The notes under the pieces: generated by a model
Database searches by the model: none
Told to the model about the DNA's origin: nothing
Seen by the model: the letters and a program-made list of their open reading frames with translations, nothing else
In this document: one piece after another, positions 26,268 through 63,362 of the stretch
How positions within the stretch are numbered: the stretch's first letter is position 1
How the letters are laid out: the number at the start of each line of letters is the position of its first letter
NCBI GenBank assembly: GCA_964016885.1
Contig: OZ024740.1
Coordinates: 249,798,001 to 249,862,000 of the forward strand
DNA from: Eledone cirrhosa
Lineage: Eukaryota
Direction: 5' to 3'
DNA: 64,000 nucleotides
Made by a program: the position numbers and the translations under genes

Positions 26268-26368
26268 CTCATAGAGTGACACCAAAACATTCAGAATCTC
26301 TGGTAAGTTCTGTTGTACTATACCAAGGGAATCTTCAGAATAAGAAGCAGCTACCAGCCGGGAGAGAG
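26268..26368 (-). CDS. NDC1: NDC1 internal exon
   Basis: ctatag|CT...GAG|gtaaat, 101 nt; ALSRLVAASYSEDSLGIVQQNLPEILNVLVSLYE matches the conserved NDC1 motif LSHLVAASFTEDRFGVVQ. Confidence 0.95.
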
Positions 26369-27457
26369 CTATAGTAAACAATGAAAGTTAACACAACATA
26401 TAGAATACAGTCTCAACACAACATACCAGCATTGCAGGTTGTGTAAGGGGATGTTAACGTGTAGTGGCAAGACTATGTAGTGATTATGGTTACAGTAATG
26501 AGACTGTGTATTGGTTGTAGTTGCAGTAACTAGACAGTGACTAGGTTGTGTACAGGTTATGTAGTGGTTATAGCTAATACTGTTAATTTCTACTGTGGCC
26601 AAAGTCAGTATGATTATTCTATGGCAGCAAACAATAAGGTTACTGCTACATTGGTTGTGGTTAAACTAGCTAACCTTGATAGTGGTTGAAGGCAATACAG
26701 TTAACTTTTTTAATGAACAAGATAAATGTTATTAATTGATCTCCATAATGATCAAGGCTGACGTTAACCTCTGTAATGATCAAGCCTGATGCTATCAATC
26801 TCAGTCTGGTGAGGAAAGATTGAGTGAAGTGCTTAATGCAAAGCTTGAAAGATGTGACAAGGAATGCTGTGTTAGTTGGAGTAAAAGTAGGCAGAATATG
26901 CAGCTAGCTAATTCAGAAAAATAAAGGCCATTGTAGTAGCAGCAGAAGCAAAGAAAGGAGAACATGCATGTGTTAGTGATTGTAGTGTGTTGGTGAGCGA
27001 ATGGTCAACAATTTGTCCAATAGCCATATTTTGATCTTGGATGTGTGTGTAGCAGCACCAACATCGTCCCATAGATATTGAGTTGTTGTTACAGCTTACA
27101 CATAAATAAGGTTAGCAGGCCTCCTATTAGATTGCGTCTCATGGGGGATTTCTTGGAAGTTTTAATGATAGGGGCCTCCTTAGTCATTCGACAATCTAAC
27201 AATTCCACCAATCCACCATCTAGGACTGAAACTTTATTAACCTAGAAAGAATGAAAGACAAAGTTGACCCCAGCAAGATGTGAACTTAGATTACAGAGAG
27301 CCAGAACAAATAATGCAAATTTACCACCAGCTATCAGCGGTATGCTTATTTTGAGCCAATATTTATCAGTTGAAATTGATACTAATTAATTAATATAATG
27401 GTACTGGTTGATGTTAGTAAACATTAGAGCAAGCAAGAAAAATAAAACAGTTCTCAC

Positions 27458-28470: not shown

Positions 28471-28680
28471 AATTCCTCCCATAACTAGCCTGGGATTTTT
28501 TACTGCCCTCAAAAAGATGAAAGACAAAGTTGAGCTCAGTGGGATTTGAACACAAAGAGCAGGAACGAATACGGCAAATCATTCTAGCTGATGTTCTAAT
28601 GACTCTGTCAATTCATCATTAGCAATAATAATTTCTTCTAAGTGCCCCTTAGTAGTAGTAATAAAAGCACAATATCATAC

Positions 28681-28736
28681 CTTTGTCTGTAAGCTAACCT
28701 TTATGGGTCTTTCTTCACGGAGAGAAGTACCAGTTA
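28681..28736 (-). CDS. NDC1: NDC1 small internal exon (probable)
   Basis: ttttcag|TA...AAG|gtatga, 56 nt, open frame TGTSLREERPIKVSLQTK ending in phase 0 as required; poorly conserved region, so support is mainly splice signals and phase. Confidence 0.72.
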
Positions 28737-28807
28737 CTGAAAACAGGTAAAATAAAAAAAAGATGAGTGTGTATGTGTGTGTCTCTCTCTCTCTCTATAT
28801 ATATATA

Positions 28808-31732
28808 TCATCATCATCATCATCATCATTTTACGTCCGCTTTTCCCTGCTTGCAAGGGTGGGACGGGTCTTATTCAGCACAGCATCTCTCCACTCGTCA
28901 CGGTCCCTCGTCATCTCCACCGTGAGCTTCAATGATCTGAGGTCTGTTCTCACCACCTCCGCCCATGTTTTTCGTGGTCTACCTCTACTACGTCTTCCTT
29001 CAACTGGCATTTCCTGGCACTTCTTCACCCATCGGTCATCCTCCATGCGCATCACATGTCCATACCACCTCAGTCTCCTCTCCCGTACACTACATTCTAT
29101 CCCTCTCAGACACAGTTTCTCTCTCAACACATTTATGCTGGGTCGTTCACGCACATTTACACTGCACATCCAACGGAGCATGCTTGCCTCATTTCTCTCC
29201 AGCCGTCGCATATCTTCTGCGGTAGCTGCCCATGTCTCACTACCATGCAGCATCGCGCTCCTCACACAGGCATCATACAACCGGCCTTTCGTACGCAGGG
29301 AGAAACCCTTCTTCGTCAACAGAGGAAGCAGCTCCCTAAACTTCTTCCAACCCGTCCTTATTCTAGATACTATGGCCTCGGAACACCCTCCTCCCATGCT
29401 AATCTGATCTCCTAGGTACCGGAAGCTATCCACCACTTCTATAGCGCCCTCTCGCATTTGAAAAATGTGTCTATCAGTGCGACTTCTACTGTCTAATTTC
29501 CCTGTACATCTACTGCATACATATTTCTCCCTACCTGTTAGTTTGCCTGCTATCCCGCTACATCTCTTGTGTACCCAGGACCTACATTGTGTGCATTTTA
29601 TAGAATTTATGCCAGTTCCTTTTCTGCATATCGAACATGGCCATTTCCCTGACGGAATCAGGGTTTTGTCCTCTTTTCTACTCATCAACACTTTTGTCTT
29701 AGCTAGATTTACTCTCAGTCCTCTTGCTTCCAACTGCTGTTTCCATAGCCGGAATTTATTCTCTAGCTCCTCTACTGATTCTGCCATAAGAGCCAGATCG
29801 TCAGCATAGAGAAGTTCCCATGGACAGCCAGTCTTAAACTCCTCTGTTATGGCTTGGAGGACTATAATGAACAAGAGCGGGCTGAGGACCGAACCCTGAT
29901 GTACTCCTACTTGTATCTGGAATTCCTCACTAAACTCCATTCCTACCCTGACTTTACTGAGAGTACCTCTGTACAAAGTTTGCACTGTCCTTACAAGCCA
30001 TTCCTCAACACCCAGCTTCCTTAGGGACCACCAGATGACAGATCGGGGTACCCTATCAAAGGCCTTCTCTAGGTCAACAAAGGCCAAGTATAGTGGCTTA
30101 TTCTTCTCTAAGAACCTCTCTTGCATTTGTCTCACCAAGAAGAGGGCATCTGTTGTACTCTTCCCAGGCACAAAACCAAACTGCATCTCATCTAGTTTGA
30201 CCCTTTCTCTAATTAGTTGTGCTAAAATCCTTTCTGCCACTTTCATAACCTGATCTATCAGTTTTATACCCCTATAATTGCTCCTCTCCAAAGCATCCCC
30301 TTTACCTTTGTAGCAATTTATGAGAATACTGCTGCACCAGTCTTTGGGTATGACACCACCATATATAGCCTGATTGATTATGCGTGCAACCAGTTTAGTG
30401 CCTACGTCCCCTGATGCCTTCAGCATCTCAGCAACTATTCCCGATGGTCCGGCCGCCTTACCATTTTTCATTTCCCTAATCGCCTCTTGGACCCTATATT
30501 CGTCAATCTCAATAGCTGGTCCCTCTGTCGGATCTACCAAGGGTAATTTCTCTCTCTCCCATTCGTTCTCCACATTCATCAGTCTCTCATAATGGCATTT
30601 CCAGGCCTCCTTTTTCTGGTCATTCGTGACACTAAGTACACCGGCATCATCCCGGACACATTTATCACCAACAACATCCTGATTTGCATTGACACACTGC
30701 CTTGCAATGTGGAACACCGCACGCCTCTGATCTTCCCGTCGCAGAACATTGGCAAACCTCCTACTCTCTGCCTCCCTGCGTGCTAAGTACACCTGACGTC
30801 TAGCTTCTCTCTTAGTGGCTGTATATTCTTCCCTACTCCCACCCTTATTCCAAGCCTTCCATGCTAGTCTTTTGTCTCTAATAGCCTTATCTACACTGCT
30901 GTTCCACCACCAGGTCACTCTCTGTCTGGTTGGGGCTCTGCTCCAGCCACAAGTTTCATCAGTAGCCTTCAGCAAGTTGTCACGTAAGAACTTCCAGTTA
31001 TTATCTATGTCATACGTCTCTAAATCGTCTTCTTTTTCGTCATATACATCTTGAAGGGCTTTCCTAAATTTGAATTTTAGTGAAAGGTCTTTTAGCTTCC
31101 AGACCTTTCTTCTCCACACCTTCCTATATGGCTCATTCCATCTCTTGCTTACTGAGATATCACTAACAACTAACCTATGCTGTGGGGTACATTCTTCCCC
31201 AGGGTATGCCTTGGTATTAGACACTATCTGCCTGTCCCGCTGCCTAACTAGCAGGAAGTCAATCTGGCTTATGTGCTCACCAGATTTGTAGGTTATTAGG
31301 TGATTGGCAGGTTTCTGGAAGTTTGTGTTGCAAATAGTCAATGTACTTGCATCACAAAATTCAAGAAGTCTCACTCCTTCTTCATTTCTTGAACCGTAAC
31401 CATGCCCACCATGTACCCCAGTGTAACCATCCTGGAGCTGTCCAACATGACCATTGAAGTCTCCTGCTAGCATAACGATGTCTCCGTCCTCTGTCATTGT
31501 GGTTGTTTGCAAAAGTTGCTCATAAAAGCAGTCTTTCTCATCTTTGCCTAGGCCTGCTTGGGGAGCATAGACCGAGATGATTGTCAGTAGTCTCCTACCT
31601 ACAACTAATCTAAGCTTAATTATTCGATTACTAACTCGAACTACCTCTATTGTCTTATTGATCCATTTCTCAGCCAGGAAAATGCCTACTCCCCCTAACC
31701 CATCATCCTTACCTAGCCAGAATAGCTTATAT
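28808..31732 (-). mobile_element. Young RTE LINE, slightly 5'-truncated, APE-RT ORF uninterrupted (28831 to about 31730)
   Basis: About 965 stop-free codons with YAPQ, GDFNGHVG, DLEKAFD, YADD and PHD-like cluster; (tca)n tail abutting (TA)n. Confidence 0.96.
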
Positions 31733-31749
31733 AAATAAAATATTTGTAG

Positions 31750-32310
31750 ATATGGAGAGGACTCTTGAGTCCAGTAAGACAACCTCTAGTACTGGTGGCA
31801 TGAATAATGGCTGGTGATAGGAAGGGTACCTAAACAGAAAAACCCTGCCAAAATATGAGCAGTACGACAAACAAAACTCCCACAAATTGCATATACAGGG
31901 CTAACACTAGTCATGTGCGAGAACCCCTCAACTGTCATCAAGCAATCACACAACCACTTTCCCTTTCATATACATAAAACTTCTACCCAAGGAAATAACA
32001 ACTGGCAAGGTACAAAACTCAGGAATGTCTCCCTAAAAGTTAAATTGGATGCAATTGTGGAACTATTAGAGAAGAGAGAAGTAGACATTTGCTGTGTACA
32101 AGAGGTGAGATGCCTCAGCAAGATTACTGACAGGCAAACAACATAGAAACAAACTTTACTGGATAGGAAATGACGATGGAATGCACTGCTTAGCACAAGT
32201 TACTTATTAGTGACATCAAAATAAGCACAAGACACGCAGGAAAATATGGAAGCTAAAGGAGCTTTCGGTTAAATTAAGTTTAGAAAGGCTCTACAAGATG
32301 CATTTTAAGA
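31750..32310 (+). mobile_element. Decayed RTE 5' UTR and APE start
   Basis: Homologous to 33740-34200; VDICCVQEVR. Confidence 0.7.
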
Positions 32311-32599
32311 GCTGTGTGCATACAGTTCACAAAAACAAGATGGTGCAGAACAAAGGAGAGAAACATAACAAATTATTCACTGAGAAGGTCACAGAATGTG
32401 ATGAAAGAACTTTGACAATAAACAACCATCCAGTCATTAAACTAACCAACTGGAAGTTTATAATAAATTGAAGGGAAAACTAACAGGTGCGTGTGTTTTT
32501 ATTGGCAGCATGGCCCTCCCAAAGTAAAACAATATCTGTTTCAAGACACACTTCAGATAAGAAACCTTGAAAAACAAATAACAATTGAAGTATATATAT

Positions 32600-32780
32600 A
32601 CATATCATCATCATCATCACTGTTTAACATCTATTTTCCATGTTTGTATGGGTGAGACAGGTTGTCCACGTTATGAGACAAGTCTCGCAAGCTGACAGCA
32701 CCATACCTTGCTCAAATGGAATTGTATTTTGGCTGGGATTTTTACAGCTAGATGCCTTTCCTAACACCAACAACATTTAG
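32600..32780 (-). mobile_element. RTE-derived 3' end / SINE tail with (TGA)n
   Basis: (tca)n..tttaacatctattttccatg..gatgcctttcctaacaccaac. Confidence 0.7.
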
Positions 32781-32972
32781 TGTGGAACTGGGTGGTCCCA
32801 TTATCAGGGAGGACAGGCCAGTTGGCTGTGTCATGCATTGCCCATAGTGGGGCTGTGTTTGGGATGTTTGGGATATATATGCGATTGTCCCAGCGCATTG
32901 CTGGTGCCTTTTTTTGGGCCCGGAGCGTGGAGGACCGTAGCTCTATGCTGTAAAACAAACAATTATTATAAT

Positions 32973-33120
32973 AATTGTTTCTACTTTTGGCACAAGGCCA
33001 GCAATTATCCCAGTGAATTACTGGTACTTTATTTTATCGACCCTGTAAGGATGAAAGGCAAAGTAAACATCGGCAGGATTTGAACTCAGACGGCAAAGGG
33101 CCGTAACTCTATGCTGCAAT
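32973..33120 (-). mobile_element. tRNA-derived SINE
   Basis: Matches the 25350-25540 family. Confidence 0.82.
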
Positions 33121-33278
33121 AATACTGAACAGTAACACTCAGCTTCAATTATATGAGCTCCTTCTAAAGTCAACAGTTGACATGATCTTGTATCAGTAAT
33201 GACGGTAATATATGTGTGTGTGTGTGTTTGTATGCATGAGTGTTGGTGTGTGAGTGAGTGTGTGTGTGTGCTGTACGT

Positions 33279-33376
33279 GAGGTTGACTTTGCCTTTCATC
33301 CTTACGGGGTCGATAAAATAAAGTACCAGTAATGCACTGGGTAATTGCTGGCCTTGTGCCTAAAGTAGAAACAATT
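33279..33376 (+). mobile_element. tRNA-derived SINE, 3' half
   Basis: gaggttgactttgcctttcatcc..tgcctaaagtagaaacaatt. Confidence 0.82.
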
Positions 33377-33739
33377 ATTATTATTTTTTTTTCCTTTGCA
33401 CGGAGACATAGAAATAACCGGGTTAGATACCCGATCACGCAGTTAAACCACTGGGAGTGCAGGACCCCTAGCCCTTGTCAGAGAATTCTTCTAGGAAAAG
33501 GCATCTAAGGAAACTCCAACATAAAACCTGCGGCTCATGATGTTGATCTTTTCTTCTTTTCGGGTTATAGCTACTGTCGCTCAGAGAATGGGATTGGCTC
33601 AGTGCACAGTCTTTCCTCACTTTAAAAATATTCTTCACGCACAGGCATTGCACGATTGCATTAATTAATAACTATTAATAGTGTTATTGTTATTATTGTT
33701 GTGACCATGCTGTAAAATGGAGGGGTAGAGAGGGCCCAT

Positions 33740-36700
33740 TAGTCCAGTAAGACATCCTCTCTAGTGCCTGGTGGCATGAATAAAAGCACCCAGTCCATGC
33801 TGTAAAGTGATGCTGGTGTTAGGAAGGGCATCCAACCAGTGTATTAATGCCAAAACAATTATGAGCACAACAACAAATATATATCGCAATAACTGCATAA
33901 ACAGCAATAGCACTAACCATGTTAGGGCTGCGCACAGTAGTGGGGTGGCTGGTGCGGCCATGTGCGAGAACCCCCGACCGTCTTCAAGCAATCGCACTAC
34001 AGGAAAAGGAATAACAAAAATACAAAGACGTCGCATCTCAGAGTTGCAACACTTAATGTTGGCACTCTCACAGGTAGATCTGGTGAAATAGCGGAGATGC
34101 TGGAGAGAAGGCATGTGGATGTGTGCTGCATGCAAGAGGTGAGATAGAGAGGTGCCTCTGCGAGACTAATCTCAGGCAAACATCTTAGTTATAAACTTTT
34201 CTGGGTAGGTAAGGATGATGGGTTAGGGGGAGTAGGCATTTTCCTGGTTGAGAGATAGATCGATAAGACAATAGAGGTAGTTCGAGCTAATAATCGAATA
34301 ATTAAGCTTAGATTAGTTGTAGGCAGGAGACTACTGACAATCATCACTGCCTATGCTCCCCAAGCAGGCCTAGGCAAAGAAGAGAAAGACTGCTTTTATG
34401 AGCAACTTTTACAAACAACTGCAATGACAGAGGACGGAGACATCGTTATGCTAGTAGAGGACTTCAATGCTCATATTGGACAGCTCCAAGATGGTTACAC
34501 TGGGGTACATGGTGGGCACGGTTACGGCTCAAGAAATGAAGAAGGAGTGAAACTTCTTGAATTTTGTGATGCAAGTACACGGACAATTTGCAACACTAAC
34601 TTCCAGAAACCTGCCAACCACCTAATAACCCACAAATCAGGCGAGCACATAAGCCAGATTGACTTCTTACAAGTTAGGCAGCGAGACAGGCAGATGGTGT
34701 CAAATACCAAGGCATACTCTGGGGAAGAATGTACTCCACAGCATAGGTTAGTCGTTAGTGATATCTCAGCAAGTAAGAGACGGAATGAGACATACAGGAA
34801 GGTCTGGAAGCTAAAAGACCTTTCACTAAAATACAAATTTAGGAAAGCCCTTCAAGATGTGTATGACGAAAAAGAAGATGATTTAGAGTTGTATGACATA
34901 GATGATAACTGGAGCAGACCAGACAGAAAGTGACCTGATCGTGGAACAGCACAGTAAAGAGGGCCAATAGAGACAAAAGACTAGCATGGAAGGCTTGGAA
35001 AAAGGGTGGGAGTAGAGAAGGATACACAGCCGCTAAGAGAGAAGCTAGACGTCAGGTGTACTTAGCACGCAGGGAGGCTGAGAGTAGCAGGTTTGCCAAT
35101 GTTCTGCGACGGGAAGATCAGAGACGTGCGGTGTTCCACATTGCAAGGCAGTGTGTCAATGCAAATCAGGATGTTGTTGGAGAGAGATAAATGTGTCCGG
35201 AATGATGCCGGTGTACTTAGTGTCACAAATGATCAGAAAAAGGAGGCCTGGAAATGTCATTTTGAGAGACTGATGAATGTGGAGAACGAATGGGAGAGAG
35301 AGAAATTACCCTCAGTAGATCCGTCAGAGGGAGCAGCTATTGAGATTGACGAATATAGGGTCCAAGAGGCGATTAAGGAAACGAAAAATGGTAAGGCCGC
35401 TGGACCGTCGGGGATAGTTGCTGAGATGCTGAAGGCATCAGGGGACGTAGGCACTAAACTGGTTGCACGCATCATCAATCAGGCTATATATGGCGGTGTC
35501 ATACCCAAAGACTGGTGCAGCAGTATTCTCATAAATTGCTACAAAGGTAAAGGGGATGCTCTGGAGAGGAGCAATTATAGGGGTATAAAACTGATGGATC
35601 AGGTTATGGCAGAAAGGATATTAGCACAACTAATTAGAGAAAAGGTCAAACATGCCGTTTGGTTTTGTGCCTGGAAAAAGTACAACAGATGCCCTCTTCT
35701 TGGTGAGACAATTACAAGAGAGGTTCTTAGAGAAGAATAAGCCACTATACTTAGCTTTTGTTGACCTAGAGAAGGCCTTTGATAGGGTACCCAAATCTGT
35801 CATTTGGTGATCCCTAAGGAAACTAGGTGTTGAGGAATGGCTTGTGAGGACAGTGCAAACTTTGTACAGAGGTGATGTCAGTAAAGTGAGGGTAGGAATG
35901 GAGTTTAGTGAGGAATTCCAGATACAGGTAGGAGTACATCAAGGTTCGGTCCTCAGCCCGCTCTTGTTCATTATAGTCCTCCAAGCCATAACAGAGGAGT
36001 TTAAGAATGGCTGTTCATGGGAACTTCACTATGCTGACGATCTGGTTCTTATAGCAGAATCAGTAGAGGAGCTAGAGAATAAATTCTGGCTATGGAAACA
36101 GCAGTTGGAATCAAGAGGACTGAGAGTAAACCTAGCTAAGACAAAAGTGTTGACAAGTAGGAAAGAGGACAAAACTCTGATTCCATCAGGGAAATGGCCA
36201 TGTTCGATATGCAGAAAAGGAACTGGGAAAAATTCTATAAAATGCACACAATGCAGATCTTGGGTACACAAGAGATGTAGTGGGATAGCAGGCAAACTAA
36301 CAGGTAGGGAGAAATACATATGCAGTAGATGTACAGGGAAATTAGACAGAAGAAGTCGCGTTGATAGGCACATTTTTCAAATGCAGGTGGGTGCTATAGA
36401 AGTGGTTGATAGCTTCCGGTACCTAGGAGATCAGATTAGCATTGGAGGGGGTTGTTCTGAGGCCATAGTATCTAGAATAAGGACGGGTTGGAAGAAGTTT
36501 AGGGAGCTGCTTCTTCTGCTGACGAAGAAGGGTTTCTCCCTGCGTACGAAAGGCCGGTTATATGATGCAACTGCAGAGGATATGCGACGGCTGGAGAGAA
36601 ATGAGGCAAGCATGCTCCGTTGGATGTGGAATGTCAATGTGCCTGAACAACCCAGCATGGATGTGTTGAGAGGGATAGAATGTAGTGTGCGAGAGAGGAG

Positions 36701-36821
36701 ACTGAGGTGGTATGGACATGTGATGCGCATGGAGGATGACCGATGGGTGAAGTGGAGAGATGCTGAATAAGACCCATCCCACCCTTGCAAGCAGGGAAAA
36801 GCGGACGTATGATGATGATGA
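33740..36821 (+). mobile_element. Near full-length but decayed RTE LINE (same family as 28808-31732)
   Basis: 5' UTR, VATLNVGTLTG, RT motifs, (GAT)n tail; stops, frameshifts and deletions. Confidence 0.94.
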
Positions 36822-36938
36822 TATAATATATATATATAATGGAGGCACATGACTTAGTGGTTAGAGCATTGGCCTTGCAATCGAAAGGTTGTGAGTTCAA
36901 TATGCGTGTTCTTCCTGTTCCGTATAACCATTACCAGT

Positions 36939-36979
36939 CCGAGCTGAAGATCCGCATAAGGTGAAACAATTGTTCTCGG
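36939..36979 (+). ncRNA. Candidate minimal type I hammerhead ribozyme
   Basis: CCGAG-CUGAAGA-(weak stem II)-GAAA-CAAUUG-UU-CUCGG: perfect 5-bp stem I and palindromic stem III. Confidence 0.6.
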
Positions 36980-37026
36980 TATGGTGAACCTACTGTTGTG
37001 TTACTACTTACATATATATATATATA

Positions 37027-37200
37027 TGGAGGCACATGGCTTAGTAGTTAGAGCATTGGCCTTTGTATCGAAAGGTTGTGAGTTCAATTCTCAGACCAGG
37101 TGATGTGTTGTTTCCTTGAGCAAGACACTTTATTTCACATTGCTCCAGTTTACTCAGCTGTAGAAATGAGATGATAGGGACTGGGGGTCCATATCATTCC
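37027..37200 (+). mobile_element. tRNA-derived SINE (a second head lies at 36840-36902)
   Basis: A box tggcttagtag, B box gagttcaattc, body tccttgagcaagacacttt..tgctccagtttactcagctg. Confidence 0.82.
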
Positions 37201-37721
37201 ACTGCAAAGTGGGCGTGGAGGTGCCACGGCAAAAAAGCACCCAGCACTCACTGTAAATGAGGTTGGTGTTAGGAAGGGCATCCAGCTGTAGAAATCAAGC
37301 CAAAATCAGTTCCCGTCCCACCCTTGCAAGCAAGGAAAAAGCGGACGTAAAATATGATGATGATGATATATAAATATAGTTAAAACTTAGACGGGAACAA
37401 AAACATAGAGGCAGTACAAATAAGAGTTTATTAGGTTCACGCTTTTGAGAGCGGGGGTATACATATATATATATATATACATACATATATATATATATAT
37501 TGTTATACTTGGGGAGGGTCATATTGTAATAATATTGCCAGAAATAACAACAGAACACACTCACTGTTTGGTTGGTTTTCGCTTCTGCATCTTTTATATC
37601 TCCATAGTTAATTCATTTGACCATCAATATTTATCATTGACTGACCAATGGTCAAAAATACAGATATAAATATATATATAGTCTAACAAAGTTCTTTCGT
37701 TGCACATCTGCAACATCATCA

Positions 37722-40385
37722 TCATCATCATCATTTTACGCCCGCTTTTCCCTGCTTGCAAGGGTGGGACGGGTCTTATTCAGCACAGCATCTCTCCACT
37801 CGTCACGGTCCCTCGTCATCTCCATTGTGAGCTTCAATGATCTGAGGTCTGTTCTCACCACCTCCGCCCATGTTTTTTGTGGTCTACCTCTACCACGTCT
37901 TCCTTCAACTGGCAATTCCTGGCACTTCTTCACCCAACGGTCATCCTCCATGCGCATCACATGTCCATACCACCTCAGTCTCCTCTCCCGTACACTACAT
38001 TCTATCCCTCTCAGACACAGTTTCTCTCTCAACACATTTATGCTGGGTCGTTCACGCACATTTACACTGCACATCCAACGGAGGATGCTTGCCTCATTTC
38101 TCTCCAGCCGTCGCATATCCTCTGCAGTTGCTGCCCATGTCTCACTACCATGCAGCATCGCGCTCCTCACACAGGCATCATACAACCGGCCTTTCATACG
38201 CAGGGAGAAACCCTTCTTCGTCAACAGAAGAAGCAGCTCCCTAAACTTCTTCCAACCCGTCCTTATTCTAGATACTATGACCTCGGAACACCCTCCTCCC
38301 ATGCTAATCTGATCTCCTAGGTACCGGAAGCTATCCACCACTTCTATAGCGCCCTCCTGCATTTGAAAAATGTGTCTATCAATGCGACTTCTACTGTCTA
38401 ATTTCCCTGTACATCTACTGCATACATATTTCTCCCTACCTGTTAGTTTACCTGCTATCCTGCTACATCTCCTGTGTTCCCAGGATCTGCATTGTGTGCA
38501 TTTTATATAATTTATGCCAGTTCCTTTTCTGTATATCGAACATGGCCATTTCCCTGACAGAATCAGGGTTTTGTCCTCTTTTCTACTCATCAACACTTTT
38601 GTCTTAGCTAGATTCACTCTCAGTCCTCTTGCTTCCAACTGCTGTTTCCATAGCCAGAATTTATTCTCTAGCTCCTCTACTGATTCTGCTATAAGAACCA
38701 GATCGTCAGCATAGAGAAGTTCCCATGGACAGCCAGTCTTAAACTCCTCTGTTATGGCTTGGAGGACTATAATGAACAAGAGCGGGCTGAGGACCGAACC
38801 CTGATGTACTCCTACTTGTATCTGGAATTCCTCACTAAACTCCATTCCTACCCTGACTTTACTGAGAGTACCTCTGTACAAAGTTTGCACTGTCCTCACA
38901 AGCCATTCCTCAACACCTAGCTTCCTTAGGGAGCACCAGATGACAGATCGGGGTACCCTATCAAAGGCCTTCTCTAGGTCAACAAAGGCTAGGTATAGTG
39001 GTTTATTCTTCTCTAAGAACCTCTCTTGCAATTGTCTCACTAAGAAGAGGGCATCTGTTGTACTCTTCCCAAGCACAAAACCAAACTGCATCTCATCTAG
39101 TTCGACCCTTTCTCTAATTAGTTGTGCTAAAATCCTTTCTGCCACTTTCATAACCCGATCTATCAGTTTTATACCCCTATAATTGCTCCTCTCCAAAGCA
39201 TCCCCTTTACCTTTGTAGCAATTTATGAGAATACTGCTGCACCAGTCTTTGGGTATGACACCACCATATATAGCTTGATTGATGATGCGTGCAACCAGTT
39301 TAGTGCCTACGTCCCCTGATGCCTTCAGCATCTCAGCAACTATTCCCGATGGTCCGGCAGCCTTACCATTTTTCATTTCCCTAATCGCCTCTTGGACCCT
39401 ATATTCGTCAATCTCAATAGCTGGTCCCTCTGTTGGATCTACCAAGGGTAATTTCTCTCTCTCCCATTTGTTCTCCACATTCATCAGTCTCTCATAATGA
39501 CATTTCCAGGCCTCCTTTTTCTGATCATTCGTGACACTAAGTACACCGGCATCATACCGGACACATTTATCTCCAACAATATCCTGATTTGCATTGACAC
39601 ACTGCCTTGCAATGTGGAACACCGCACGCCTCTGATCTTCTCGTCGCAGAACATTGGCAAAACTCCTACTCTCTGCCTCCCTGCGTGCTAAGTACACCTG
39701 ACGTCTAGCTTCTCTCTTAGTGGCTGTATATTCTTCCCTACTCTCACCCTTTTTCCAAGCCTTCCATGCTAGTCTTTTGTCTCTAATGGCCTTATCTACT
39801 GTGCTGTTCCACCACCAGGTCACTCTCTGTCTGGTTGGAGCTCTGCTCCAGCCACAAGTTTCATCAGTAGCCTGCAGCAAGTTGTCACGTAAGAAATTCC
39901 AGTTATTATCTATGTCATACGTCTCTAAATCGTCTTCTTTTTCATCATATACATCTTGAAGGGCTTTCCTAAATTTGTATTTTAGTGAAAGGTCTTTTAG
40001 CTTCCAGACCTTTCTTCTCCACACCTTCCTATATGTCTCATTCCATCTCTTGTTTACTGAGATATCACTAACAACTAACCTATGCTGTGGGGTACATTCT
40101 TCCCCAGGGTATGCCTTGGTATTAGACACTAACTGCCTGTGCCGCTGCCTAACTAGTAAGAAGTCAATCTGGCGTATGTGCTCACCAGATTTGTAGGTTA
40201 TTAGGTGATTGGCAGGTTTCTGGAAGTTTGTGTTGCAAATAGTCAATGTACCTGCATCACAAAATTCAAGAAGTCTCACTCCTTCTTCATTTCTTGAACC
40301 GTAACCGTGCCCACCATGTACCCCAGTGTAACCATCCTGGAGCTGTCCAACATGATCATTGAAGTCTCCTGCTAGCATAACGATG
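37722..40385 (-). mobile_element. Young 5'-truncated RTE LINE, ORF uninterrupted
   Basis: Near-identical to 28808-31480; homology ends at ..cataacgatg (40385). Confidence 0.96.
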
Positions 40386-40514
40386 GTGGTACTATTATCA
40401 TGTTTGAACACACATGCAAACGCATGCACAGAGACGGAGACAAAAATAAATAAATAAATAAATAGATAAAATAAAAATGTTGTGAACACGACACAATAGG
40501 AGGAAACATGATAA

Positions 40515-40566
40515 TAGTACCACTGATGATGTTGCAGATGTGCAATGAAAGAACTTTGTTAGACTA
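40515..40566 (+). ncRNA. Candidate minimal hammerhead ribozyme
   Basis: CUGAUGA-U-GUUGCA(GAUG)UGCAAU-GAAA-GAAC-UU; interrupted stem I (UAGU..CA / UG..ACUA). Confidence 0.55.
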
Positions 40567-40811
40567 TATATATATATATTTATACCTGTATTTTTGACTG
40601 TTGGTCAGTCAATGATAAACATTGATGGCCAAATGAATTAACTATGGAGATATAAAAGATGCAGAAGCAAAAACCAACCAAACAGTGAGTGTGTTCTGTT
40701 GTTATTTCTGGCAATATTATTACAACAATATGACCCTCCCCAAGTATAACAATATTTGCTTCGACACGATTTCATATCAAAAACCTCGCAAAACAAACAT
40801 ATATATACAGA

Positions 40812-40864
40812 TATATATATTTCAAGGGCACCAAAACTTTGGTACGCTCTCATCAGATAAAATA
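40812..40864 (-). ncRNA. Hammerhead ribozyme remnant lacking the 3' strand of stem I
   Basis: CUGAUGA-GAGCGUACCAAAGUUUUGGUGCCCUU-GAAA-UAUAUAUA; homology to the 41501 copy stops at the predicted cleavage site. Confidence 0.7.
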
Positions 40865-41500
40865 CAGAGCTTGATTTATAAATATTGACATATCCAGGAA
40901 TTTGAACTACGTCTTCTTAAATATATATGTAAAATGTAAAATCAACATCCTTTGGAACTCATATTAGAAATGTAAACAAATTAATAAGTGTGTTTTATAT
41001 CTATATAAGCACCAATAATATTTATATTTATACACTTATTAATCTATATAGATATTTATATACTTACAACCTGTTGTAATATAATAAGATAAAATGTACT
41101 TACAACCATAATTCTTCATATAATCTAATTGATTATATATATAATATTATAACTCATAATTTAGCTAAATATTTTTTAAATTCTGGAATCATATTCCACC
41201 ATTCCTACAAACTTTTAATTTTTAACATTTCAATCTTTTAAAATTCACGTAAATACAAGCTTTTCTTTTTTCTTCCTATACATACATATATATATCCTAA
41301 TAATTATTTTAATCTACCTAACGTCTAAAAATAACGTTTTTTCCAGCCCTATGCCTCAAACTCATTTGCATATTCATCTTAATAATTTGAAATATTTGTT
41401 TTTTCCTCTCTTTCCCCCTCTTTCCTTTTACTATCCAGGTAAAACTTGAACCATTAAGGTCTCATTCCTGGATATGTCAATATTTATAAAACAAGCTCTG

Positions 41501-41560
41501 TATTTTATCTGATGAGAGCGTACCAAAGTTTTGGTACCATTGAAATATATATAATAGAAA
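41501..41560 (+). ncRNA. Minimal type I hammerhead ribozyme (PLE pLTR type)
   Basis: UUUUAU-CUGAUGA-(GUACCAAA/UUUGGUAC stem II)-GAAA-UAUAUA-UA^-AUAGAA. Confidence 0.75.
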
Positions 41561-41694
41561 AAATATGGTTTTATAAATATAGTTTCCATTTATTAATATC
41601 ATTGATATTATACTTCAGAAAACCCGTCGAGTGCTTTGAATCAGTTATAAAAATATATATTTGTTGAATTACCAACAAATTAAATATCTCTTTG

Positions 41695-41752
<58 letters not shown>

Positions 41753-41794
41753 AATATATATACATACATATATACATATAAATATATATACATA

Positions 41795-42022
41795 CATCAT
41801 CATCATCGTTTAACGTCCATTTTCCACGCTAGCATGGGTCTGAACAGGAATTGTCCCACTTGAGGCAAGATTGGTTGTCTTGCTCAGGACTGTCTGGGGG
41901 GTTTTCTACGGCTGGGTGCCCTTCCCAACACCAACCACGTTTACAGTGTGTACTGGGAGGTTTTTACCGTGTGACCTACACGGCCACATTACACAGTGGA
42001 CTGTATGTTTTTTTGTCGTGAC
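41795..42022 (-). mobile_element. RTE 3' UTR fragment with (TGA)n tail
   Basis: Matches 16000-16240 in reverse; flanked by (TA)n. Confidence 0.85.
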
Positions 42023-42042
42023 ATATATACATATATATATAC

Positions 42043-44494
42043 ATCATCATCATTTTACATCTGCTCTTCCCTGCTTGCAAGGGTGGGACGGGTCTTATTC
42101 AGCAGATAATCTCTCCACTTGTCAAGGTCCTTCGTCATCTCCACCATGAGCTTCAGCGATCTGAGGTCTGTTCTCACCATCTCCGCCTATGTTTTTCGTG
42201 GTCTACCTCTACCACGTCTTCCTTCAACTGGCATTTCTTCACCCATCGGTCATCCTCCATGCACATCACATGTCCATACCACCTCAGTCTCCTCTCCCGT
42301 ACACTACATTCTATCTCTCTCAGACAGTTTCTCTCTCAACACATTCATGCTGGGTTGTTCACGCACATCGTCACTGCACATCCAACGGAGCATGTTGGCT
42401 TCATTTCTCTCCAGCCGTCGCATATCCTGTGCAGTTGCTGCCCATGTCTCACTACCATGCAGCATCGCGCTCCTCACACAGACATCATATAACCGGCATT
42501 CCGTATGCAGGGAGAAACCCTTCTTCGTCAGCAGAGGAAGCAGCTCCCTAAACTTCTTGCAACCCATCCTTATTCTAGATACTATGGCCTCGGAACAACT
42601 CCCTCCTCCCATGCTAATCTGATCTCCTAGGTACCGGAAGCTATCCACCACTTCTATAGCGCCCACCTGCATTTGAAAAATGTGTCTATCAATGCGACTT
42701 CTAATGTCTAATTTCCCTGTACATCTACTGCATACATATTTCTCCCTACCTGTTAGTTTACCTGCTATCCCGCTACATCTCCTGTGTACCCAGGATCTGC
42801 ATTGTGTGCATTTTATATAATTTATGCTAGTTCCTTTTCTGCATATCGAACATGGCCATTTCCCTGACGGAATCAGAGGTTTGTCCTCTTTTCTACTCAT
42901 CAACACTTTTGTCTTAGCTAGGTTCACTCTCAGTCCTCTTGCTTCCAACTGCTGTTTCCATAGCCAGAATTTATTCTCTAGTTCCTCTACTGATTCTGCT
43001 ATAAGAACCAGCTCGTCAGCATAATGAAGTTCCCATGGACAGCCAGTCTTAAACTCCTCTGTTATGGCTTGGAGGACTATAATGAACAAGAGCGGGCTGA
43101 GGACCGAACCTGGATGTACTCCTACCTGTATCTGGAATTCCTCACTAAACTCCATTCCTACCCTGAATTTACTGACAGTACCTCTGTACAAAGTTTGCAC
43201 TGTCCTCACAAGCCATTCCTCAACACCTAGTTTCCTTAGGGACCACCAGATGACACGATCGAGGTACCCTATCAAAGGCCTTCTCTAGGTCAACAAAGGC
43301 TAAGTATAGTGGCTTATTTTTCCCTAAGAACCTCTCTTGCAATTGTCTCACCAAGAAGAGGGCATCTGTTGCACTCTTCCCAGGCACAAAACCAAACTGC
43401 ATGTCATCTCGTTTGACCCTTTCTCTAATTAGTTGGGCTAATATCCTTTCTGCCACTTTCATAACCCGATCCATCAGTTTTATACCCCTATAATTTCTCC
43501 TCTCCAGAGCATCCCCTTTACCTTTGTAGCAATTTATGAGAATACTGCTGCACCAGTCTTTGGGTATGACACCGCCATAAATAGCCTGATTGATGATGCG
43601 TGCAACCAGTTTAGTGCCTACGTCCCCTGATGCCTTCAGCATCTCAGCAACTATCCCTGACGGTCCAGCGGCCTTACCATTTTTAATTTCCTTAATTGCC
43701 TCTTGGACCCTATATTCGTCAATCTCAATAGCTGCTCCCTGTCGGATCTACTGAGGGTAATTTCTCTTTCTCCCATTCGTTCTCCACATTCATCAGTCTC
43801 TCATAATGACATTTCCAGGCCTCCTTTTTCTGATCATTCGTGACACTAAGTACACCGGCATCATTCCGGACACATTTATCTCCAACAACATCCTGATTTG
43901 CATTGATACACTGCCTTGCAATGTGGAACACCGCACACCTCTGATCTTCCCATCGCAGAACATTGGCAAACCTCCTACTCTCAGCCTCCCTGCGTGCTAA
44001 GTACACCTGATGTCTAGCTTCTCTCTTAGCGGCTGTATATTCTTCCCTACTCTCACCCTTTTTCCAAGACTTCCATGCTAGTCTTTTGTCTCTAATGGCC
44101 TTATCTACTGTGCTGTTCCACTACCAGGTTATTCTCTGTCTGGTTAGAGCTCTGCTCCAGCCACAAGTTTCATCAGTAGCCTGCAGTAAGTTGTCACGTA
44201 AGAAGTTATTATCTATGTCATAAGTCAATCCCGCCGAGGTTGACTTTGCCTTTCATCCTTACGGGGTCGATAAAATAAAGTACCAGTAATACACTGGATA
44301 ATTGCTGGCCTTATGCCTAAAGTAGAAACAATTATCTATGTCATACGTCTCTAAATCGACTTCTTTTTCGTCATACACATCTTGAAGGGCTTTCCTAAAT
44401 TTGTATTTTAGTGAAAGGTCTTTTAGCTTCCAGACCTTTCTTCTCCACACCTTCCTGTATGTCTCATTCCATCTCTTGCTTACTGAGATATCAC
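42043..44494 (-). mobile_element. 5'-truncated, decayed RTE LINE with a nested SINE
   Basis: ORFs 42304-43275, 43220-43642 and 43725-44006 are collinear with the 28831 protein. Confidence 0.94.
44223..44330 (+). mobile_element. 5'-truncated SINE with 15-bp TSD
   Basis: attatctatgtcata at 44208-44222 and 44331-44345. Confidence 0.9.
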
Positions 44495-60284: not shown

Positions 60285-63200
60285 ATTAAATAAATGGAAA
60301 ACTATATTTATAAAACCATATTTATTTCATTATATATATTTCGGGGATATCATATTAACAATATGCTATGCCTTCATCAGACAAAATACAATATAAACAG
60401 TTTTATAGATAAATATATTCGACATACCGTAATAAACATCGACTTCATTTGAAGAGGTTTACGCTAGCAGTGAAAATTTTATACAGAGAGAAAGAAAGAG
60501 AAAAAGAAAGAAAGACAAAACGAAGAAAAGGAAGAAAAAGAAGAAAAAGAAAAAGAAGAAATGCAGAAATGCATGGAACAAAATAGAGAGATGGAAAAAT
60601 AGATAAAGCGAAGAGCTTCATGTAAAGAAACAGAAAGATATATATATATATATAGAGAGAGGAAATAGAGATAGATACATATATATATATAGAAAATTAG
60701 GTAGTGTGAGGTCATTTTGAGTAAGTGTATCAATGATACATTTATTTATTTATTTATTTAGCGCAAGTATTAATGTAAGGGAGATATATATAGAGAGAGA
60801 AAAAAAATTTAAAAATAGCCAGACATATTCGAGGCGTATAAAATCCTATGTTTTAATGTATTAGTATTTATAAAACTTACACTATATTGTAAATATCAGT
60901 ATTCCTGAATGAAACAAGTATCTATAATGTGTGAAAATTCATTATCTTATGTTTAGTTTTATAAAATTCATATGTTTATATGACAGTTACAAATATCCAT
61001 GTGAATCTAACTGATTCACTCTGCAAACTCTAAGTTACCGGAAAACATTCTCAATGTGGTATAAAAATTTGAGCGTATTATTATTCCTGCGATTACTCTA
61101 CAAGATTATCTATCAAGCAGAAATAGAGAGCAGATTTCAATATACTAATAAAAATATATATTATATTATAAACAGAACTAAAAATAGAAAGATAACAATA
61201 ATAATAATAATAAGTAAAAATATAGAATAGAAAACTAAAAAAAATAAAAAATAAAAAAATATTAAAATATTATTATTATTAAATATTAAAAAAACAATAA
61301 TAATATTAAACTAAAAAATATTACGAAAGAATATTACATAATAAAAATATTGCATACTAAAAATACTACGTATTAAAAAATATTACGTATTAAAAATATT
61401 AAAAATGAAAATAAAAAATAAAAAATATTATAGAATACTACAATACTAAAAAAAAAAATATTATAGAATACTACAATACTAAAAAAAATAAAAATAAAAA
61501 TAAAATAAAAATAAAAATAAACCACAAAGAACAACCCTTCAAAGTTAATTGGCAATATATTGCCAAGTTCATTACAAGACAAAGCCAAAAAATTATCTAT
61601 CAAATCACATCTAGCAAAGAACATTTCAAAAAGATTATGATGTCCAATTATGTCTATATATGTTCTTATATTTAATATAGAAATTTATCTAGTGTAAGGT
61701 TAATTCAAAAAATTTGGAGCATCGGCTTTTAGGGTAGCTTAATTTTTCATGAGGAATGTTTAGATAGAAATAAAAATAAATAAAATAAAAATAAACAATA
61801 AAAAAAGAGTAAAAAGAGGGAATCAAAGATTTAGGAATCAAAAAATTATCGGCTAGTTCTCATATAAATATAAATCAAACTAAATATACTACATTTTAAA
61901 TTTAAATTTATATTTAAACGTTGAGTTTAATCTATGTTTGCAACAACTGAATAAATTTGTCCGTAGGTTAAGGGAATTTTTAGATTTTAGTATAAAGAAT
62001 ATCTCCTCTGCGCAGAGGTCACATGTCTCAGAGGATGAATTAAAAGGAATCCCTCTTGAGACTATATTCCAAGCCATTGAATATCTAACGTTATCTAGCT
62101 TAAGTTGCCAGAGTACGCCTGATAGTGCCGTTGAAGATTTTTTACTTGGATCTGTGAAAGAATTCTTGTGGTTATTATAGCGAAGTTTAAATTCCGTCGA
62201 TGTGGAACCGACGTAGTTAAAAGAATTAGAGTCAGTATTAACATTACAATTGTATACTATATTTTTAACTAAGCAGTTGTTATTTAACGGACATTTAGAT
62301 CTATCTCTACAGTTACATTTGTTAACTTGTATATTATTTATGCTATTATCAGTAGGTTTTAAGTTCCTATTATTTATTCTATTAATATTTTGTGCTAAAT
62401 TTTTGGTGGATGAGTAGGTTAATTTAATTGTATGCCTATTGAAGATTGAGTGATACCTATGTGTTCTAGGGAAGCGATTATCAAGAGCTTTGAAAAATAA
62501 TTTAGCGATGTGGGTTTTAATGTTTAGTGAGAAAGGGGGGGTAAACCAAATTATGTTCCTAGTTCTATTTCTTTTTTGTCCTTTGGAATTATTGTAATGC
62601 TTTCTATTATAGTTGTTAAAGTTGTTGCCGTAATTAAAAAAGTTGTTACTTTGTTTAGTTTGTCTATCATTATCTATGTATACAATCTTATCAGTATACC
62701 CTGCCCTAGCTAGTGCATCATTATAGTACTGGGCCTTTTCGTCAAAAATCTTTCTATTCGACGAGATCCTAGAGATACGTTTTTGGACTGAGTTTACTAT
62801 AGTGTTTTTGACAGATCTGGGGTGGTTAGAGTTAAAGTTGACATAGTTTAAGTTTTCATTCAACTTGTGAAAAGGATAGTGGAGACATGTGTTGAGATTT
62901 AATGTTATATCTAGGAAATTGACTATTCTATGGTTGTTCTCAATTTCTATTTTAAGGTTAAAGTAATTAAAAAATTTTGTAATTTGTTTACATTTTCTAT
63001 TTAGTTCAGGGTTATTATTATTAATAAGTAAAAGCATGTCATCCCTATATAAACCTCCGGTAGTACCAGGTATTTTCCTATGTAGCGAATTGATTAAAAA
63101 TAAGCCCACAAGGTCAGTTACCTGAACTGAGTCGGAAGATCCCATAGTTATGTCAAAATTGTTATCTCTATCTGCTCTGGTCCATAATTTGTCATTAAAT

Positions 63201-63362
63201 TCTATCAAAGTTTTCCTAGCCGATATAATATGCATTTCTTTGCTAGTTAGGTCCGTATGTTTGAATGCGTAATTTAGTGCCTTATTTAGTAGACTAGGAG
63301 TAATAGAAGAATAATAGTTAGCTATATCACTTTACATGTATCTTGCTCCAATACTGTTGAGC
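60283..63362 (-). mobile_element. Naiad-type Penelope-like element: RT C-terminal half, GIY-YIG, AT-rich 3' region and pLTR
   Basis: DIANYYSSI (after an in-frame TAA), FDITMGSSD, GLYRDD, VNFLDITLNL, SNHP, IIWFTPPFS, CNCRDRSKCPLNNNC, YVGST, CDLC; ORF 61889-63235. Confidence 0.9.
60323..60388 (-). ncRNA. Minimal hammerhead ribozyme motif in the putative Naiad pLTR
   Basis: UAUUUUGU-CUGAUGA-(CAUAUU/AAUAUG hairpin, imperfect base)-GAAA-UAUAUA-UA-AUGAAAUA. Confidence 0.68.

What the first reader, a model, noticed from the sequence alone, without database searches (positions are those of the whole stretch)
37700..40410. RTE LINE inserted into the CUGAUGA core of a hammerhead via its (TGA)n tail
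Seen: removing 37722-40385 restores ..tgcaacatcatca|gtggtactattatcatgttt, the reverse complement of the right arm at 40504-40536. The RTE therefore sits between C3 and U4 of CUGAUGA, its (TGA)n tail merges with the UGAUGAUG of the motif, and there is no TSD. Inference: tail-to-target microhomology could make PLE hammerhead cores preferred targets of this RTE family, so one retroelement would disable another. The split copy is the one in NDC1 pre-mRNA sense.
Basis: partly seen in the sequence, partly recalled or inferred. Interest (0 to 1): 0.7.

Follow-up and report, generated by a model that had tools for sequence, protein, structure and literature searches.

The report
One-off LINE insertion splitting a hammerhead
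A truncated jumping gene sits exactly inside the hammerhead ribozyme motif of a dead piece of another jumping gene, but it is the only such case among about 1,900 copies of that motif in this genome, so it is likely a chance landing helped by matching repeat letters and not a targeted attack.

Summary
A 5'-truncated, 2,664-bp RTE-type LINE (37722-40385, minus strand) sits between C3 and U4 of a CUGAUGA hammerhead core. There is no target-site duplication, and its (TGA)n tail merges with the target. The host is the inverted, 5'-truncated end of a Neptune-like Penelope element in an NDC1 intron, on the NDC1 sense strand.

The targeting idea fails its own test. The genome holds 1,943 copies of this core and at least 11,507 exact tails of this LINE or its partner SINE, yet three independent pattern searches find only this one junction. 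Over about 23,400 cores of this pattern type I find 1 clean case and 2 ambiguous ones, against roughly 0.9-1.3 expected from ordinary short microhomology. Lack of a duplication is normal for this family (42 of 48 copies). The split copy is a 250-bp fragment with no reading frame, so nothing mobile was disabled.

A several-fold preference for long TGA matches is not excluded. Self-cleavage is untested, and no empty allele was seen. Earlier notes of this scan describe the same head-to-head Penelope scars in other genomes; none that I retrieved describes the LINE insertion.

The parts
37497..37721 (-). 3' part of the inverted, 5'-truncated Penelope-like end copy (left arm), ending in a (TA)n run
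37678..37721 (-). 3' part of the split hammerhead: U4-A9 (37721-37716), unpaired U (37715), helix II (37714-37699), GAAA (37698-37695), 2-bp helix III, predicted cleavage residue U17 (37689), 3' strand of helix I
   Evidence: sequence; covariation with sister motifs; cleavage not tested
37722..37733 (-). (TGA)4 tail of the LINE, merged with the target's TGATGATG; boundary ambiguous by up to 8 nt
37734..40385 (-). RTE-type LINE body, 5'-truncated inside the endonuclease; 882-aa open frame with RT and PHD-like finger; 97.3% identical to the copy at 28817-31480
40386..40410 (-). 5' part of the split copy: 5' strand of helix I and C3 (40386); ends at the head-to-head inversion point
40408..40800 (+). 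Longer Penelope-like end copy (right arm) with its roughly 45-bp tail extension, followed by (TA)n
   Evidence: 86-92% identical to long copies L002, L009, L016
40514..40566 (+). Unsplit hammerhead of the right arm (C3 = 40523; C11.1 changed to U); antisense to NDC1
28678..28740 (-). NDC1 exon downstream of the host intron (residues 409-429 of P0001)

Best explanation
A 5'-truncated RTE-type LINE lies between C3 and U4 of a hammerhead motif in a dead Penelope-like fragment, and it likely got there by ordinary target-primed reverse transcription, as a chance single event. Shown: a Neptune-like Penelope element left a head-to-head pair of truncated ends in an NDC1 intron; the LINE lies in one arm; there is no duplication; no second clean case exists in this family. 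Inferred: the LINE endonuclease nicked the strand opposite C3|U4 (or 3 or 6 bases further in), the freed CATCATCA-3' end paired with the (UGA)n RNA tail and primed copying, copying stopped after 2.66 kb, and the 5' end was joined blunt or with a loss of at most 8 bases. The match to CUGAUGA is a coincidence of a (TGA)n tail meeting a common motif; the family mostly lands at AT and (TA)n. The predicted effect on NDC1 is small: a lone minimal hammerhead is not expected to cut, and before the insertion it would have been paired with the opposite arm.
For: Junctions. Single case: tail plus family core 1 match in the genome; three or more TGA-type units before the core, 10 matches, of which 2 are family cores, the focal one and L096, which has a (TA)n flank and no LINE; left half broken after C3, 2 matches, the focal one and a point-mutated core. 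Denominators: 1,838 intact plus 105 non-C3 cores; 11,507 exact tails, about 31,000-44,000 with a shorter prefix (from 11 of 30 and 5 of 19); 23,866 generic cores against 510 for the reversed control. Tail plus generic core: 37 rows, 1 clean, 2 with the core's left half missing; expected 0.90-1.26, and P(at least 2) outside this family is 0.21-0.33. Usual targets: 24 of 30 tails end in GAT and 14 of 30 run into ATAT or ACAT. A partner SINE hit the same Penelope family at a non-core GAT site (L150). No duplication of 7 nt or more in 42 of 48 copies with a resolved 5' end. Tail-target overlap and blunt or truncating joins are published LINE behaviour (PMC6007223 section 18; PMC4245944 passages).
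Against: Within this family alone the chance of one hit under a 3-nt background is only 6-9%, so the 8-nt match may have raised the odds. Counting both ambiguous cases gives 3 against 0.90-1.26, P 0.06-0.13. The neighbouring TA run of the same element shows 0 sense-strand hits, so in-element controls (0 and 1) do not exceed the core (1). The background rests on 3 of 30 tails per class (95% interval 2-27%) and on motif densities from 144 kb; the rate at generic TGATGA sites could not be measured directly. Exact patterns miss diverged copies and tails longer than about 12 units, and other (TGA)n-tailed families were covered only for this one core family.
Confidence: 0.85

Rival explanations
1. 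Long tail-target pairing raises the insertion rate several-fold at any TGATGA(TG) site, so hammerhead cores are mildly over-hit as a side effect, with no recognition of the ribozyme.
For: One hit where 0.06-0.09 is expected on a 3-nt background in this family, but 0.95-1.3 if priming needed a 5-nt TGATG match. L131 and L145 have tails joined at or beside a core. The upper bound from 2 cases is 5-7-fold.
Against: Most tails join with only AT or GAT overlap. The two extra cases have (TA)n 5' flanks and no clear left half, and Penelope copies that simply start inside the core are common (L050, L056, L057, L060, L096). PMC6007223 reports animal 3' microhomology of one or two bases.
Confidence: 0.11
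2. The LINE specifically targets Penelope hammerhead cores and so inactivates Penelope elements.
For: Exact position in the catalytic core and an 8-nt tail match.
Against: 1 of 1,943 family cores and 1 clean case in about 23,400 cores; at most about 0.04% of exact tails; the target is a non-coding fragment.
Confidence: 0.02
3. The structure is an assembly error or a recombination product between repeats, not an insertion.
For: Both partners are high-copy repeats and there is no duplication to mark an insertion.
Against: Both halves of the core flank the LINE in register with no base missing. In run X23, from another sample and study than the best holders, 8 reads cross the LINE 5' junction into the Penelope arm and carry this copy's private base at 40356.
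Confidence: 0.02

Closest known systems
Minimal type I hammerheads (min-HHR) in the pLTRs of metazoan Penelope-like elements (Cervera and de la Pena 2014, PMC4209133; parts 1-2 of 4 of the text read, supplements not seen)
   Same: CUGAUGA and GAAA boxes, an unpaired base between 9 and 10.1, G10.1-C11.1, 6-bp helix II, short helix I, tiny helix III, thousands of dispersed copies, pairs on opposite strands 100-700 bp apart.
   Different: Loop 3 is not palindromic in most copies (GAAC in 48 of 58), residue 17 is U, helix I carries a mismatch; this copy is split by a LINE.
Neptune-type endonuclease-bearing Penelope-like elements and their inverted 5'-truncated insertions (Craig et al. 2021, PMC8557442, passages)
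   Same: RT followed by a CX4CxxC linker and a GIY-YIG-like domain with two inner cysteines and two histidines in long copies; inverted truncated copy next to the 5' end; tail extension on one end; (TA)n flanks.
   Different: Only 250 and 390 bp of the 3' end are present here; clade was read from motifs, not from a tree.
RTE-clade LINEs with microsatellite tails and 3' tail-target microhomology (Nishiyama and Ohshima 2018, PMC6007223, passages and section 18; Ichiyanagi and Okada 2008 seen only as cited there and in PMC4245944)
   Same: Endonuclease plus RT in one frame, short tandem-repeat tail, tail overlapping the target, a SINE sharing the 3' end.
   Different: Vertebrate RTEs mostly make 7-15-bp duplications; this family mostly makes none (42 of 48). 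It has a PHD-like finger after the RT, whereas the octopus RTE-2_OV has a C2H2 finger (PMC9115989, passages). The overlap here can be 8 nt, against one to several reported.

Membership tests
PLE minimal hammerhead (type I) | CUGANGA and GAAA boxes flanking helix II | tested here: met
   Right arm and restored left arm; family tally
PLE minimal hammerhead (type I) | Helix II with covariation, G10.1-C11.1 and an unpaired base after A9 | tested here: met
   100% of cells paired, 2 of 6 pairs change on both sides between sister families, 12 hand-picked motifs; few independent events; the right arm has G-U at 10.1-11.1
PLE minimal hammerhead (type I) | U16.1-H17 after A15.1, then helix I | tested here: met
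   GAAAGAACU-H with H = U, C or A in sister motifs; helix I 85% paired with 1 compensatory pair, but a C-U mismatch in this family
PLE minimal hammerhead (type I) | Palindromic 15.2-16.2 and loop 3 that allow the dimeric fold | tested here: not met
   GAAC in 48 of 58 motifs; palindromic GATC or GAGC-T in 3
PLE minimal hammerhead (type I) | Self-cleavage | not testable with these tools
   Needs an in vitro assay; the lowest-energy fold of the monomer is not the hammerhead fold
Rfam hammerhead families | Score above gathering threshold | tested here: not met
   No match
EN+ Penelope-like element (Neptune type) | RT then C-terminal GIY-YIG with CCHH and CX2-5CxxC linker upstream of the motif | tested here: met
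   Read by eye in L002, L009, L043, L102 across frameshifts. Pfam gave no RT or GIY-YIG match; the PDB search gave only weak RT matches, E 0.37-0.63
EN+ Penelope-like element (Neptune type) | Inverted 5'-truncated partner, one-sided tail extension, (TA)n target | tested here: met
EN+ Penelope-like element (Neptune type) | RT phylogeny | not tested
RTE-clade LINE | AP endonuclease and RT in one reading frame | tested here: met
   RVT_1 E 4e-29 in the insert; Exo_endo_phos_2 E 2e-5, below Pfam's cut-off, in the longer sister copy
RTE-clade LINE | Short tandem-repeat 3' tail shared with a SINE | tested here: met
   (TGA)n tail on LINE and tRNA-like SINE copies
RTE-clade LINE | 7-15-bp target-site duplication as in vertebrate RTEs | tested here: not met
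   None here; under 7 nt in 42 of 48 relatives
RTE-clade LINE | RT phylogeny within the RTE clade | not tested
   The label 'RTE-type' rests on architecture and on recalled sequence motifs, not on a tree
Target-specific non-LTR retrotransposon | Most copies at one target sequence | tested here: not met
   0 of 30 sampled tails at a hammerhead; 1 clean case in the genome

The most novel reading that the evidence does not exclude
Because the hammerhead's catalytic box spells UGAUGA, LINEs and SINEs with a (TGA)n tail hit Penelope hammerhead cores several times more often than matched background sites, so a ribozyme's conserved core is a measurable landing pad for a rival retroelement (focal case, L131 and perhaps L145).
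Probability: 0.1. Interest if true: 0.4.

Novelty: new member of a known kind. Interest (0 to 1): 0.12.

Why it matters
As it stands it matters little: it is one nested insertion in a repeat-rich intron. It is a clean example of tail-target overlap with a reconstructible empty site, and a possible presence/absence marker. If cores were over-hit, it would link a catalytic RNA constraint to element-versus-element interference, but even the upper bound (under 0.3% of this family's cores) is too small to curb Penelope activity.

Tried and rejected
Rfam found no hammerhead, so the label was tested by covariation instead.

Empty allele: laying runs on 37360-40900 was swamped by other repeat copies, and the joints table was cut (153 rows not shown). 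In X21 and X22, 72 and 74 molecules begin at 40426 but only about 16 and 18 minus-strand reads carry this copy's base at 40356; I could not tell whether the rest are an empty allele, another haplotype or other copies. On 40345-40428, X23 showed 8 of 8 junction reads filled; contigs of X1, X2 and X4 did not cross the junction. The small-share runs were not used.

Candidates rejected as clean core insertions: L113 (point changes only), L096 (no LINE), L121/L145 ((TA)n flank, extra T, no left half), and L133, L135, L136 (no core next to the helix). L131 is kept as ambiguous.

One search listed only 100 of 200 rows; I screened those by eye and fetched 9 of them plus 3 further candidates from the same list. 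Seven of the 37 rows were judged from the printed match only. For the TSD count, 26 of 74 tails were dropped because the 5' end was not resolved.

The protein-atlas look-up gave no result, and Pfam did not recognise the Penelope protein. Paper searches for a LINE inserted in a hammerhead and for the clade of PHD-bearing RTEs returned nothing on point; the library lacks most subscription papers.

Full report
Observation. The 2,664 bases at 37722-40385 are a LINE fragment on the minus strand, 97.3% identical to the copy at 28817-31480. It has one open frame of 882 residues with an RT domain and a weak PHD-like match; the longer sister copy also shows the endonuclease domain. The fragment starts inside the endonuclease, so it lacks promoter and start. 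At its 5' end the flank reads ...GTACCAC and the LINE begins CATCG; sister copies have different bases before that word, so the join is direct. At its 3' end six TGA units and TG run into TTGCAG. Cutting the fragment out gives a sequence that aligns to the right arm with 7 substitutions and 2 short indels and none at the core. No duplication is present; a loss of up to 8 target bases would be invisible under the tail.

What the target is. The arm belongs to a large repeat family (3,884 first-look candidates). Long copies (L002, L009, L043, L102) continue upstream into a decayed reading frame with an RT YVDD motif, a CX4CxxC linker and a GIY-YIG-like domain with two inner cysteines and two histidines. 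These are the features given for Neptune-type Penelope-like elements (PMC8557442, passages). Pfam did not recognise this protein, so the assignment is by motif. The window holds a head-to-head pair: about 390 bp on the plus strand with the tail extension, and about 250 bp inverted without it, both ending in (TA)n. That is the published inverted-truncation pattern.

Is it a hammerhead? Rfam does not match it. It does fit the minimal PLE hammerheads of PMC4209133 (parts 1-2 of 4 read): both boxes, an unpaired base after A9, G10.1-C11.1 and a 6-bp helix II. Sister families keep GAAAGAACU-H while changing helix II on both sides. On 12 hand-picked motifs 95% of cells pair, 3 pairs change on both sides, and slid controls give 21-45%; these are few independent events. 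Against activity: loop 3 is not palindromic in 48 of 58 motifs, helix I has a mismatch, residue 17 is U (recalled as the weakest choice), and the paper reports no cleavage for a single minimal motif. I treat it as a hammerhead by structure, with activity unknown.

Gene context. An NDC1 exon lies at 26268-26375 on the minus strand. An octopus NDC1 protein (P0001) maps as an exon ladder across the window and the next 70 kb, placing the locus in an intron of about 49 kb. The split copy is therefore in the pre-mRNA sense. The two arms are predicted to pair strongly in that RNA (-356 kcal/mol), which would have sequestered the motif before the insertion, when the arms lay under 100 bases apart.

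Test of targeting, this family. Intact cores number 1,838 and cores with another base at position 3 number 105 (30 inspected, only the focal one has a LINE tail). Exact tails of this LINE and its partner SINE number 11,507. Tail plus core occurs once. Three or more TGA-type units before the core give 10 matches, of which 2 are family cores, and only the focal one has a LINE. The left half broken directly after C3 gives 2 matches, the focal one and a point-mutated copy. So there is no replicate. As in-element controls, the TA run just downstream has 0 sense-strand hits, and a non-core GAT site has 1 SINE hit, with 23-31 target bases lost (L150).

Test of targeting, all cores of this pattern. 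A generic core pattern gives 23,866 matches against 510 for the reversed control; the listed rows fall into a few repeat families. Tail plus generic core gives 37 rows (30 inspected as loci, 7 by the printed match). One is the focal case. L131 is a well-formed hammerhead whose TGATGA is merged with a short tail; its 5' flank is (TA)n plus five ambiguous bases. L145 has a tail beside a core with a (TA)n flank and no left half. Penelope copies that begin inside the core are common without any LINE, so those two need not be core insertions. With 31,000-44,000 tails, 3 of 30 tails ending in TGA and 3 of 30 in ATG, and local motif densities, the expected number is 0.84-1.17 outside this family and 0.06-0.09 inside it. 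Two cases outside have P 0.21-0.33; three in all have P 0.06-0.13; the upper bound is 5-7-fold. These inputs are rough, and the focal case was chosen because it was seen.

What the family does target. Of 30 sampled tails, 24 end in GAT and 14 run into ATAT or ACAT; none is at a hammerhead. Of 74 tails examined, 48 had a resolved 5' end, and 42 of these have no repeat of 7 nt or more; 3 have only TA runs and 3 have a complex match, against 9 of 400 in mismatched pairs. Lack of a duplication is thus the family's habit. It differs from the 10-12-bp peak reported for vertebrate RTEs (PMC4245944, passages).

Other individuals. In run X23, 8 reads cross the 5' junction and all are filled, which supports the assembly. 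No empty allele was seen, and X21 and X22 were unresolved.

Mechanism. Shown: the order of events (Penelope pair first, LINE inside one arm), both junctions and the counts. Inferred from established LINE biology: a nick opposite C3|U4, pairing of the freed CATCATCA end with the (UGA)n RNA tail, truncated copying, and a blunt or slightly truncating 5' join. Overlap between tail and target is described for RTE, CR1 and L2 elements (PMC6007223 section 18), and blunt or truncating joins are named outcomes.

Verdict. The feature is real and accurately described, and it is an ordinary nested insertion. My paper searches found no report of a LINE in a hammerhead core, but the parts and the mechanism are known. 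Preferred targeting is not supported; a mild bias towards long TGA matches remains possible at about 10%. Interest 0.12.

Noticed in passing
L062-L091, L116-L156; window 37024-37367: This (TGA)n-tailed LINE and its tRNA-like partner SINE mostly lack target-site duplications (42 of 48) and join at AT or GAT, unlike vertebrate RTEs; 13 of the 30 sampled tails were SINE copies.
   Followed up: partly
window 28834-31785 and 37739-40384: The LINE protein carries a PHD-like finger directly after the RT domain (Pfam PHD E 1.6e-5 in the sister copy); one paper search found nothing on it in RTEs.
   Followed up: partly
G000 genome-wide; L157-L186: About 23,400 CUGAUGA-N-G...CGAAA hammerhead-like cores in a handful of repeat families; one family with a 4-bp helix II dominates the listed rows.
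   Followed up: partly
window 40795-40908 and 41457-41570: A second head-to-head pair with hammerhead-like cores at 40856 (-) and 41509 (+) and an ATATAT helix III lies right beside the finding.
   Followed up: no
window 61889-63331 (-) and 60380 (-): A 480-aa frame with a GIY-YIG-like end, likely another Penelope-like element, with a hammerhead-like core about 1.5 kb downstream.
   Followed up: no
L131 (G000:C5:120901724-120901774): A short SINE/LINE tail merged with the TGATGA of a well-formed hammerhead (palindromic helix III, GUC site); possibly a second true core insertion with C3 lost.
   Followed up: partly
L146 and L154: SINE tails join at TGA near the start of one repeat family with a hairpin, GAAA and no standard UH; it may be one of the scrambled hammerheads that earlier notes report in this genome.
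   Followed up: no
L050, L056, L057, L060, L096: Copies of this Penelope family often begin inside the CUGAUGA box with a foreign flank, so 5' ends cluster at the motif.
   Followed up: partly
window 28678-28830: The sister LINE copy ends about 75 bases upstream of an NDC1 exon, in the same sense.
   Followed up: no
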